DNA from: Candidatus Saccharimonadota bacterium
GTDB taxonomy: Bacteria; Patescibacteriota; Saccharimonadia; Saccharimonadales; Saccharimonadaceae
Reading direction: 5' to 3'
Assembly (NCBI GenBank): GCA_016280905.1
Contig: JAEEHN010000007.1
Span: 28,621-92,620, forward strand
Length of the DNA: 64,000 nucleotides
Made by a program: the position numbers and the translations under genes. Below the pieces are notes generated by a model that was not told the DNA's origin, did not search any database, and saw only the letters and a program-made list of their open reading frames with translations. Positions 52,073-52,249 of this stretch are shown here, in pieces (position 1 is the first letter of the stretch; the number at the start of each line of letters is the position of its first letter).

Positions 52073-52093
52073 AAAAAACGACCTTTCGGTCGC
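52073..52093 (-). terminator. Intrinsic terminator of the orphan ncRNA
   Basis: Minus strand GCGACC-GAAA-GGTCGT followed by a T run. Confidence 0.8.
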
Positions 52094-52099
52094 TTTCCC

Positions 52100-52214
52100 G
52101 CTGTTACGCGCCCACCCTTGGGGCACATTTTTTGTTTTAATCCGCTATTTGTTTTTAATGTAAGTCTCCACACTCCACTAATTTCAGTGGAACCCCTGTG
52201 AAGCGTACCAGCTT
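52100..52214 (-). ncRNA. Putative structured ncRNA of unknown class
   Basis: Own promoter and terminator, no ORF; 5' GCTGGTACGCTTCAC-A-GGGGT pairs with 3' GCCCC-AAGG-GTGGG-C-GCGTAACAGC; two internal hairpins. Confidence 0.65.
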
Positions 52215-52220
52215 ATGTCT

Positions 52221-52249
52221 ATCATAAAGCATAAGCATCAAAAAGTCAA
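52221..52249 (-). promoter_or_regulatory. sigma70 promoter of the orphan ncRNA
   Basis: TTGACT-17 nt-TATGAT. Confidence 0.7.

What the first reader, a model, noticed from the sequence alone, without database searches (positions are those of the whole stretch)
52073..52249. Orphan ~113-nt structured RNA with its own promoter and terminator
Seen on the minus strand: TTGACT-17-TATGAT, then an RNA whose ends pair over ~19 bp. The stem encloses hairpins TCCACT-gaaatt-AGTGGA and GTGTGG-agac-TTACAT and a ~30-nt A-rich single strand, followed by a GNRA-capped terminator. There is no ORF, and I saw no tRNA, SRP, RNase P, tmRNA or common riboswitch signature. Inference: a stand-alone ncRNA (a reduced 6S-like RNA, or an RNA partner/antitoxin of the DUF5674 pair) or an unknown attenuator for that pair, since the terminator abuts the pair's -10.
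Basis: partly seen in the sequence, partly recalled or inferred. Interest (0 to 1): 0.7.

Follow-up and report, generated by a model that had tools for sequence, protein, structure and literature searches.

The report
New conserved small RNA of Saccharibacteria
This is a real small non-coding RNA gene of about 115 nt, unmatched in Rfam, with its own promoter and terminator, kept nearly unchanged next to obg across a whole clade of host-associated Saccharibacteria; it is unrelated to the DUF5674 gene beside it, and its function is unknown.

Summary
On the minus strand a TTGACT-17-TATGAT promoter (52249-52221) precedes a ~115-nt RNA core (52214-52100) and an intrinsic terminator (52092-52073).

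I found 155 single-copy homologues in Saccharibacteria genomes and metagenomes. The promoter geometry is fixed in 107 of 136 distinct copies. A terminator is present in 123 of 136, with 101 different stem sequences. The core is about 86% identical, against 71% for obg DNA.

Compensatory changes support three helices: a 15-bp terminal helix P1 with a bulged C, a 4-bp P2 and an 8-bp hairpin P3. These stack into a rod that extrudes a roughly 50-nt A-rich strand on its 3' side, carrying two invariant boxes (AGUGUGGAGA and GRAUUAAAACAAA).

No Rfam 15 family, tRNA or tmRNA matches, and no paper I found describes it.

The gene always lies in the obg-trmD interval. It occurs in all four orientations relative to obg and has many different downstream genes. 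DUF5674 is adjacent only in this window. The attenuator and antitoxin ideas are therefore refuted, and the 6S-like idea is unsupported.

The best reading is a trans-acting small RNA, probably protein-binding. The mechanism is inferred only, and no clean transcript evidence was obtainable.

The parts
52244..52249 (-). -35 hexamer TTGACT of the small RNA promoter
   Evidence: Found by the promoter scan. TTGAC(A/G/T) sits at the same distance in 115 of 136 distinct homologous copies.
52221..52226 (-). -10 hexamer TATGAT, 17-nt spacer, ending 6 nt before AAGCUG
   Evidence: Found by the promoter scan. The geometry of a 17-nt spacer with the -10 ending 6 nt before the conserved block holds in 107 of 136 distinct copies.
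52100..52214 (-). Conserved RNA core, ~115 nt (AAGCUG...CAGC), with predicted +1 at 52214
   Evidence: nhmmer and covariance-model hits in 155 loci, one per contig. 63 of 117 positions are invariant in 37 species. Median identity is 86% against 71% for obg DNA.
52198..52212 (-). P1 5' strand (GCUGGUACGCUUCAC)
   Evidence: Pairs with 52115-52100. 93% of cells are paired. Compensatory changes: UACGC/GCGUA to UGUGC/GCACA (L155, L086) and U-A to A-U (L018, L158). Transitions in UUCAC keep wobble pairing (L131, L176, L181)..
52100..52115 (-). P1 3' strand (GUGGG-C-GCGUAACAGC), with C52110 bulged
   Evidence: GGGUGGGCGC is invariant in every aligned sequence that covers it. This is more constraint than pairing alone requires.
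52193..52196 (-). P2 5' strand GGGG, pairing with CCCC at 52123-52120
   Evidence: 100% of cells are paired. Variants seen: GGGG/CCCC, AGGG/CCCU, GAGG/CCUC, AAGG/CCUU, CGGG/CCCG, ACGG/CCGU.
52174..52191 (-). P3 hairpin (UCCACUG-AAAU-UAGUGGA) with a variable apex
   Evidence: 4 of 8 pairs show changes on both sides. The apical loop varies in length and sequence, and L133 carries a 30-nt insertion there.
52165..52174 (-). Invariant box 1, AGUGUGGAGA, single-stranded after its first base
   Evidence: Invariant in the alignment that was retrieved through obg and so is unbiased for this box.
52144..52164 (-). Variable A-rich linker
Evidence: Length and sequence vary, and it is A- and C-rich.
52131..52143 (-). 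Invariant box 2, GGAUUAAAACAAA (GAAUU in Nanosynbacter-type copies)
   Evidence: Invariant or nearly invariant columns in A1. The G-to-A variant is seen in L028, L117, L125, L139 and related copies.
52073..52092 (-). Intrinsic terminator CGACC-GAAA-GGUCG followed by U6
   Evidence: Seen in the fold. A hairpin followed by a T-run follows the core in 123 of 136 distinct copies, with 101 different stem sequences; the median T-run starts 25 nt after the core.

Best explanation
It is an independently transcribed, single-copy small RNA gene, conserved across a family-level clade of animal-associated Saccharibacteria. The record titles name Nanosyncoccus, Nanosynbacter and unnamed rumen, gut and oral relatives.

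A near-consensus sigma-70-type promoter starts transcription at about A52214. An intrinsic terminator ends it at about 52073. The primary transcript is therefore about 140 nt, with a 115-nt conserved core.

The core folds into one coaxial rod of three helices. P1 has 15 pairs with a bulged C, P2 has 4 pairs, and P3 is an 8-pair hairpin whose tip is free to vary. A roughly 50-nt A-rich strand loops out on the 3' side between P3 and P2. It carries two invariant boxes, AGUGUGGAGA and GRAUUAAAACAAA.

Shown here: the gene, its transcription signals, its fold, and its independence from any particular neighbouring gene. It must therefore act in trans.

Inferred only: it most likely works as a protein-binding RNA, either a ribonucleoprotein component or a decoy that sequesters a protein. 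The invariant single-stranded boxes and the invariant G-rich 3' strand of P1 would be the recognition surfaces. A base-pairing antisense regulator seems less likely. The partner is unknown.
For: Gene status:
- 155 loci carry one copy each.
- Sequence conservation starts at the predicted +1 and stops at the end of P1, while the flanks diverge.
- The promoter sits in fixed register in 107 of 136 distinct copies. A terminator is present in 123 of 136, with 101 distinct stems.

Fold:
- z = -4.67 for the window sequence.
- 92.8% of cells are paired, against 37-55% for slid controls.
- 9 pairs show changes on both sides, against 3.3 +/- 0.9 in shuffles (0 of 500 reach it). The MAFFT-only alignment gives 5 against 2.0 (4 of 500).

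Trans action:
- All four orientations relative to obg occur, downstream genes differ and several are convergent.

Protein-binding rather than antisense:
- Stems and loops are both far more conserved than pairing needs. 63 of 117 positions are invariant, and GGGUGGGCGC is invariant even where its partner strand changes.
- Core identity is 86% against 71% for obg DNA.
- There is no complementarity above shuffled controls to translation-initiation regions of 62 window genes (best -20.5 kcal/mol; 26 of 30 shuffles did as well), nor to obg or trmD in about 100 species.
Against: - No clean transcript evidence. No RNA run is listed for the window.
- The RNA-labelled runs that do cover the gene were selected by k-mers of that same gene. 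Their fragments run past the promoter and terminator. One run, X21, has uniform depth like DNA.
- No partner protein was identified. No neighbouring gene is consistently an RNA-binding protein.
- Only about 8% of one genome was scanned for antisense targets, and rRNA and tRNA targets were not available. Base pairing is therefore not excluded.
- High conservation could also come from two mutually exclusive folds. UACGCUUCAC can pair with either GUGGGCGCGUA or GUGGAGUGUG.
Confidence: 0.45

Rival explanations
1. It is a base-pairing (antisense) regulatory small RNA. The invariant single-stranded boxes act as seeds that pair with mRNAs, or with 16S rRNA through the two GGAG motifs. The rod and terminator only provide stability.
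For: It has the typical small-RNA layout of own promoter, unstructured conserved segment and intrinsic terminator. The boxes are invariant while the linkers vary. The A-rich (ARN)n-like tracts resemble chaperone-binding sites; this comparison is from established knowledge and was not tested.
Against: No complementarity above shuffled controls in the window or to obg and trmD start regions. The helices are conserved in sequence well beyond what pairing needs, which is unusual for antisense small RNAs. The tblastn check for Hfq and CsrA covered only the 1.7 Mb of DNA held, so its negative result says little.
Confidence: 0.25
2. It is a reduced 6S-like RNA. The rod with its large loop mimics an open promoter or fork junction and sequesters RNA polymerase holoenzyme.
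For: The shape is rod-like with a closing stem, a large internal loop and an apical hairpin. The strong promoter suggests abundance. One announced Nanosynbacter genome has only 2 annotated non-coding RNAs, so 6S may be unannotated in this group (PMC8830319). An alternative fold exists, and 6S RNAs do rearrange.
Against: No 6S model match at E <= 10 in the window, and none at E <= 5 in ten divergent homologues. The core is 115 nt against 150-200 nt. The loop is almost entirely on the 3' strand (1 nt against about 50 nt), and only an 8-bp hairpin lies beyond it, so there is no second long helix.
Confidence: 0.08
3. It is a highly divergent version of a housekeeping RNA that standard models miss in this phylum, for example 4.5S/SRP RNA.
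For: The length matches 4.5S RNA (114 nt in E. coli, from established knowledge). Conservation is at housekeeping level. Only 2 non-coding RNAs are annotated in a complete Nanosynbacter genome.
Against: No SRP, RNase P or 6S match at E <= 10 in the window and no tmRNA match, and none at E <= 5 in ten divergent homologues. The apical loop varies in length and sequence, so there is no GNAR tetraloop. There is no AGCA-type symmetric-loop motif. It is absent from the obg region of 36 more distant Saccharibacteria, whereas SRP RNA should be universal.
Confidence: 0.04
4. It is a cis-acting leader or attenuator, or an RNA antitoxin, for the downstream DUF5674 gene pair.
For: In the window the terminator ends 3 nt before the extended -10 promoter of the DUF5674 gene, counting from the last U at 52073 to TGTTATAAT at 52070.
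Against: DUF5674 is adjacent in 1 of 155 loci. The downstream gene is obg, trmD, recG, a GlyRS gene and others, or a convergent gene. The downstream gene has its own promoter and a leaderless start.
Confidence: 0.01
5. It is not an RNA but a conserved DNA element, for example a recombination or integration site at a rearrangement hot-spot, or a protein-binding region.
For: The interval shows single-gene inversions and variable inserted genes. There is no direct transcript evidence.
Against: A DNA site would not need a promoter in fixed register upstream together with a different-sequence hairpin and T-run downstream in over 120 copies. It would not show compensatory changes that preserve helices, and it would not be 115 nt long.
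Confidence: 0.03

Closest known systems
6S RNA (ssrS, Rfam RF00013)
   Same: A stand-alone RNA, probably abundant, with paired 5' and 3' ends, a rod shape with a large internal loop, and an alternative pairing scheme.
   Different: No covariance-model match. It is about 115 nt rather than 150-200 nt. The loop lies on one strand only, and there is no long second helix to mimic upstream DNA. RNA polymerase binding is untested.
Protein-sequestering small RNAs of the CsrB/RsmZ and CrcZ type
   Same: A trans-acting RNA that presents conserved single-stranded motifs (two GGA-containing boxes about 30 nt apart, and A-rich ARN-like tracts) on a structured scaffold ending in an intrinsic terminator.
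   Different: It has only two exposed GGA motifs. The second is GAA in Nanosynbacter-type copies, which is incompatible with strict CsrA recognition. No CsrA or Hfq gene was found in the DNA held, though that DNA does not cover whole genomes.
Y RNAs (Ro/Rsr-associated)
   Same: About 100 nt. The ends form a long, sequence-conserved stem with a bulged C, a large loop module sits above it, and a U-tail follows.
   Different: No Rfam Y RNA or YrlA match. The neighbouring genes I identified include no rsr/TROVE gene, whereas bacterial Y RNAs lie next to rsr (from established knowledge). There is no tRNA-like module (ARAGORN negative).
Orphan conserved non-coding RNAs of reduced or Gram-positive genomes (raiA motif RNA, OLE RNA, Mycoplasma MCS4; recalled from memory, not tested)
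   Same: Lineage-restricted, highly conserved, independently transcribed structured RNAs whose conservation implies an important but unknown role.
   Different: No sequence or model similarity (raiA and OLE are in Rfam and did not match).

Membership tests
6S RNA | Match to the Rfam 6S covariance models | tested here: not met
   No 6S hit at E <= 10 on 401 bases around the locus, nor at E <= 5 on ten divergent homologues.
6S RNA | 150-200-nt rod with a two-sided central bubble flanked by two long helices | tested here: not met
   The core is 115 nt. The closing stem is 19 bp. The loop is 1 nt on the 5' side and about 50 nt on the 3' side, with only an 8-bp hairpin beyond it.
6S RNA | Binds sigma-70 holoenzyme and templates product RNAs | not testable with these tools
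   Needs co-immunoprecipitation or small-RNA sequencing.
SRP (4.5S) RNA | Domain IV: GNAR tetraloop plus conserved symmetric and asymmetric loops, with a match to the Rfam SRP models | tested here: not met
   No SRP hit. The apical loop of the only hairpin varies in length (4 to more than 30 nt) and in sequence.
tRNA / tmRNA | Cloverleaf or tRNA-like domain detectable by ARAGORN or Rfam | tested here: not met
   ARAGORN and Rfam find only two tRNA-Leu genes elsewhere in the window.
Riboswitch / transcription attenuator | Lies 5' of, and on the same strand as, a consistent regulated gene family | tested here: not met
   The downstream gene differs among species and is convergent in at least 9 of 37 genomes. 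All four orientations relative to obg occur.
Riboswitch / transcription attenuator | Terminator competes with the aptamer's closing helix | tested here: inconclusive
   The terminators are separate hairpins 3-8 nt after P1, with unrelated sequences. I did not search systematically for antiterminators.
RNA antitoxin (type I or type III toxin-antitoxin) | Genetic linkage to a toxin gene | tested here: not met
   DUF5674 is adjacent in 1 of 155 loci, and there is no recurrent small ORF or toxin-like neighbour.
CsrB/RsmZ-type sponge | Several exposed GGA motifs that are strictly conserved | tested here: not met
   Only two GGA motifs are single-stranded. The box 2 GGA is GAA in L028, L117, L125, L139 and related copies.
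Y RNA | Rfam Y RNA or YrlA match and adjacency to rsr | tested here: not met
   No match. The recurrent neighbours are obg, trmD, recG and LysM-CHAP, plus variable cargo genes.
Bacterial stand-alone small RNA gene (generic) | Own promoter and intrinsic terminator, non-coding, conserved independently of its neighbours | tested here: met
   Indels shift the reading frame of the only AUG-started frame between species.
Bacterial stand-alone small RNA gene (generic) | A discrete transcript is detected | tested here: inconclusive
   Contigs from RNA-labelled runs cover the gene, but the runs were chosen by its own k-mers and the fragments overrun its ends.

The most novel reading that the evidence does not exclude
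This is the first conserved, probably essential, ribonucleoprotein-type small RNA specific to a lineage of Patescibacteria (CPR). It would be a housekeeping or global regulatory RNA with a fold found in no known family. It might, for example, tune ribosomes or RNA polymerase during the switch between swarmer and host-attached cells, in organisms reported to have no validated small RNAs.
Probability: 0.3. Interest if true: 0.8.

Novelty: new member of a known kind. Interest (0 to 1): 0.6.

Why it matters
Saccharibacteria have genomes of roughly 0.7 Mb (677,938 bp in one complete Nanosynbacter genome), about 94% coding in TM7x. The TM7x transcriptome preprint states that they have 'no currently validated small RNAs' (10.1101/2022.03.25.485537).

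An RNA that is better conserved than the essential GTPase gene next to it, in such streamlined genomes, is very likely important.

It gives a concrete and genetically tractable entry point into RNA-based regulation or RNP biology in the candidate phyla radiation, because these bacteria are naturally transformable (PMC10633639). It also provides a new family for Rfam and for genome annotation. At present the gene is an unannotated 'intergenic' gap beside obg.

Tried and rejected
Known families
- Rfam at gathering and at E-value thresholds, on the window and on ten divergent homologues: only noise.
- ARAGORN: nothing at the locus.

Coding potential
- The only AUG-started frame runs into the unconserved terminator and is frame-shifted by indels between species.

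Wider distribution
- Covariance model R1, motif co-occurrence and nhmmer --max on obg loci of 36 more distant Saccharibacteria (Obg 54-59% identical): no homologue. Their gaps downstream of obg share no motif.
- Phage records and viral contigs: no match.

Expression
- No RNA run is listed for the window.
- Runs found through the Nanosynbacter copy cover only the RNA gene in species-matched loci. I reject this as evidence because the runs were selected by that gene's k-mers and the fragments include promoter-upstream and post-terminator DNA. Run X21 has flat depth of about 18-20 over 11 kb, like DNA.

Targets and partners
- Antisense targets: no signal above shuffled controls.
- CsrA and Hfq tblastn on all DNA held: nothing, but this is uninformative.

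Structure
- A possible P4 (ACAUU/AAUGU against ACAAA/UUUGU): weak, because the 5' partner lies in an A-rich, poorly aligned stretch.
- RNAalifold's alternative fold: all its pairs are invariant, and it is broken in L077 and L079. It remains a possible second conformation, not the main fold.
- K-turn at the P1/P2 junction: rejected, because the 5' A is absent in many copies.

Literature
- Eight searches found no description of this RNA.

Full report
**1. What is in the window**

All features below are on the minus strand.

- -35 TTGACT at 52249-52244, a 17-nt spacer, and -10 TATGAT at 52226-52221.
- Seven bases after the -10 comes the block AAGCUGGUACGCUUCAC.
- The RNA ends pair. GCUGGUACGCUUCAC (52212-52198) pairs with GUGGG-C-GCGUAACAGC (52115-52100).
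- GGGG (52196-52193) pairs with CCCC (52123-52120).
- A hairpin, UCCACUG-AAAU-UAGUGGA, occupies 52191-52174.
- A 50-nt A-rich strand occupies 52173-52124.
- A terminator, CGACC-GAAA-GGUCG followed by U6, occupies 52092-52073.

ViennaRNA gives -49 kcal/mol against -32.1 +/- 3.6 for 200 dinucleotide shuffles (z = -4.67).

Rfam finds only two tRNA-Leu genes elsewhere in the window, and only noise at the locus at E <= 10. ARAGORN agrees.

The neighbouring genes are as follows.

| Gene | Strand | Coordinates |
|---|---|---|
| obg | + | 52288-53688 |
| DUF5674 gene | - | 52055-51723 |
| unrelated 113-aa ORF | - | 51730-51389 |
| trmD | - | 51373-50711 |
| recG | - | 50741-48663 |

**2. Homologues**

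I used Obg as a handle and fetched 80 Saccharibacteria loci. nhmmer found the RNA in 37 of them, with E-values down to 5.5e-33. All 37 hits were among the 48 loci whose Obg is at least 65% identical to the window's.

A metagenome scan used only the two loop boxes as the pattern (AGTGTGGAGAN{10,40}GRATYAAAACAAA), so the helices were not pre-selected. A covariance model built from the first alignment recovered the full RNA in 79 of the first 80 of these loci and in 38 of the remaining 40.

In all, 155 records carry the RNA, and none carries two copies.

The model, a motif co-occurrence scan and nhmmer --max found nothing within +/-5 kb of obg in 36 more distant Saccharibacteria, whose Obg is 54-59% identical. 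Phage records and viral contigs have no match either.

**3. It is a transcription unit**

Conservation begins exactly at the predicted +1 and ends at the last pair of P1.

Among 136 distinct complete copies:

- 115 have a promoter match of at least 9 of 12 positions.
- 107 have exactly the window's geometry, with a 17-nt spacer and the -10 ending 6 nt before AAGCUG.
- The -35 hexamer is TTGACA in 84 copies.
- 123 have a hairpin followed by a T-run after the core, with 101 different stem sequences. The median T-run starts 25 nt after the core.

Terminators that differ in sequence but sit at the same place are themselves comparative evidence for a defined 3' end.

The core is 86% identical (median, window against 36 species). 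The obg DNA of the same genomes is 71% identical. In the obg-retrieved alignment, 63 of 117 positions are invariant.

**4. Structure**

On the MAFFT-only alignment, the P1/P2/P3 fold together with a tentative P4 has 91.5% of cells paired, against 35-47% for slid controls.

On the larger model-fitted alignment:

- 92.8% of cells are paired, against 37-55% for slid controls.
- 9 pairs have changes on both sides, against 3.3 +/- 0.9 in shuffles (0 of 500 shuffles reach it).
- P2 is paired in 100% of cells.

The informative variants are these.

| Helix | Variants seen |
|---|---|
| P2 | GGGG/CCCC, AGGG/CCCU, GAGG/CCUC, AAGG/CCUU, CGGG/CCCG, ACGG/CCGU |
| P1 | UACGC/GCGUA to UGUGC/GCACA (L155, L086); U-A to A-U (L018, L158); UUCAC to UCUAC or UCUGC, keeping wobble pairs |
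| P3 | UCCAC/GUGGA to UUCCAC/GUGGAA and CCACUUU/AAAGUGG; free apical loop, including a 30-nt insertion in L133 |

Topologically the RNA is one rod, P1-P2-P3. One nucleotide lies between P2 and P3 on the 5' side, and about 50 nt lie between them on the 3' side.

That 3' strand carries box 1 (AGUGUGGAGA), a variable A/C-rich linker, box 2 (GRAUUAAAACAAA), and UGUG.

The 3' strand of P1 (GGGUGGGCGC) never changes, although its partner strand does.

RNAalifold prefers an alternative fold in which UACGCUUCAC pairs with GUGGAGUGUG and GUGCCC pairs with GGGCGC. All of those pairs are invariant, so the alternative is untestable by covariation, and it is broken in L077 and L079. It may be a second conformation.

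**5. Context**

The RNA sits in the obg-trmD interval. Of the 155 records, obg lies within the locus in 127 and trmD in 96, and obg is often less than 150 nt away.

All four obg-RNA orientations occur. The likely ancestral order is obg> RNA> trmD> recG>, with inversions of obg alone, of the RNA alone, or of both.

The genes between the RNA and trmD differ between species. They include a bactofilin-like repeat protein, GlyRS, an ABC ATPase, UvrB, Sua5 and others.

A DUF5674 gene is adjacent only in this window. The ORF after it has no Pfam or NCBIfam hit and no similarity to the DUF5674 protein.

The RNA is therefore neither a leader nor a partner of that gene. The DUF5674 gene has its own extended -10 (TGTTATAAT, 52070-52062) 7 nt before its ATG, which implies a leaderless mRNA.

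**6. Expression**

No RNA run is listed for the window.

Runs found through the Nanosynbacter copy (L028) cover only the RNA gene when laid on species-matched loci.

I do not count this as evidence, for three reasons:

- The runs were chosen by k-mers of the only stretch that is conserved between species.
- Each shows essentially one fragment.
- The fragments extend past the promoter and the terminator.

Run X21 has flat depth like DNA. Transcription therefore rests on comparative evidence only.

**7. Function**

Cis-regulation is excluded by the synteny data.

Membership of 6S, SRP, tmRNA, Y RNA and CsrB-type families each fails at least one defining test (see the membership table).

Antisense targets were not detected among 62 window genes, nor at obg and trmD start regions in about 100 species. 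Only a small part of any genome could be examined, however.

Sequence-level invariance of helices as well as loops is characteristic of RNAs read by proteins, or of RNAs that must satisfy two folds.

I therefore favour a trans-acting, protein-binding RNA, either an RNP component or a decoy, at about 0.45. Antisense regulation comes next (0.25), then 6S-like (0.08).

**8. Novelty**

Rfam 15 has no match.

Literature searches found no description. The TM7x transcriptome preprint says there are no validated small RNAs in TM7x. A 2024 perspective mentions none. PGAP annotates only two non-coding RNAs in a complete Nanosynbacter genome.

This is a new RNA family of the familiar kind 'stand-alone bacterial small RNA'. 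Its fold and its lineage are new.

Noticed in passing
window 50711-53688, and loci L001-L200 around the RNA: The obg-RNA-trmD interval is a hot-spot for rearrangement and gene insertion. All four obg/RNA orientations occur (inversion of obg alone, of the RNA alone, or of both). Unrelated genes are inserted between the RNA and trmD in different species. This resembles the way tRNA and tmRNA genes mark integration sites.
   Followed up: partly
window 52211-52236 (minus strand), and the same place in homologues: A dyad, GCTTA(T)...(A)TAAGC, links the -35/-10 spacer to the first transcribed bases. The left arm starts mostly 22 nt upstream of the AAGCUG block. At least 5 bp are present in 47 of 123 distinct copies, against about 4.5 expected from shuffles. 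It could be an operator for a dimeric regulator overlapping the -10.
   Followed up: partly
window 52053-52070 (minus strand): TGTTATAAT is an extended -10 that ends 7 nt before the ATG of the DUF5674 gene, which implies a leaderless mRNA. The same arrangement (TGnTATAAT, then 6 nt, then ATG) follows the RNA's terminator in L001, L005, L017 and L040, so leaderless starts look common in this clade.
   Followed up: partly
It has no Pfam or NCBIfam hit and no meaningful similarity to the first ORF. Its start overlaps the first ORF's stop by 8 nt.
   Followed up: partly
window 52100-52212 (minus strand): There are two GUGGAG repeats plus GUGGGC, and two YUYCAC elements. These give a mutually exclusive alternative fold in which UACGCUUCAC pairs with GUGGAGUGUG and GUGCCC pairs with GGGCGC. 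All observed changes in the 5' strand except those in L086 and L173 keep both folds possible.
   Followed up: partly
L028:1-11344, run X21: A run guessed to be RNA shows flat depth (about 18-20) over 11 kb, with higher depth only on short segments conserved between strains. It behaves like DNA from mixed strains, so the 'RNA?' label should not be trusted.
   Followed up: yes
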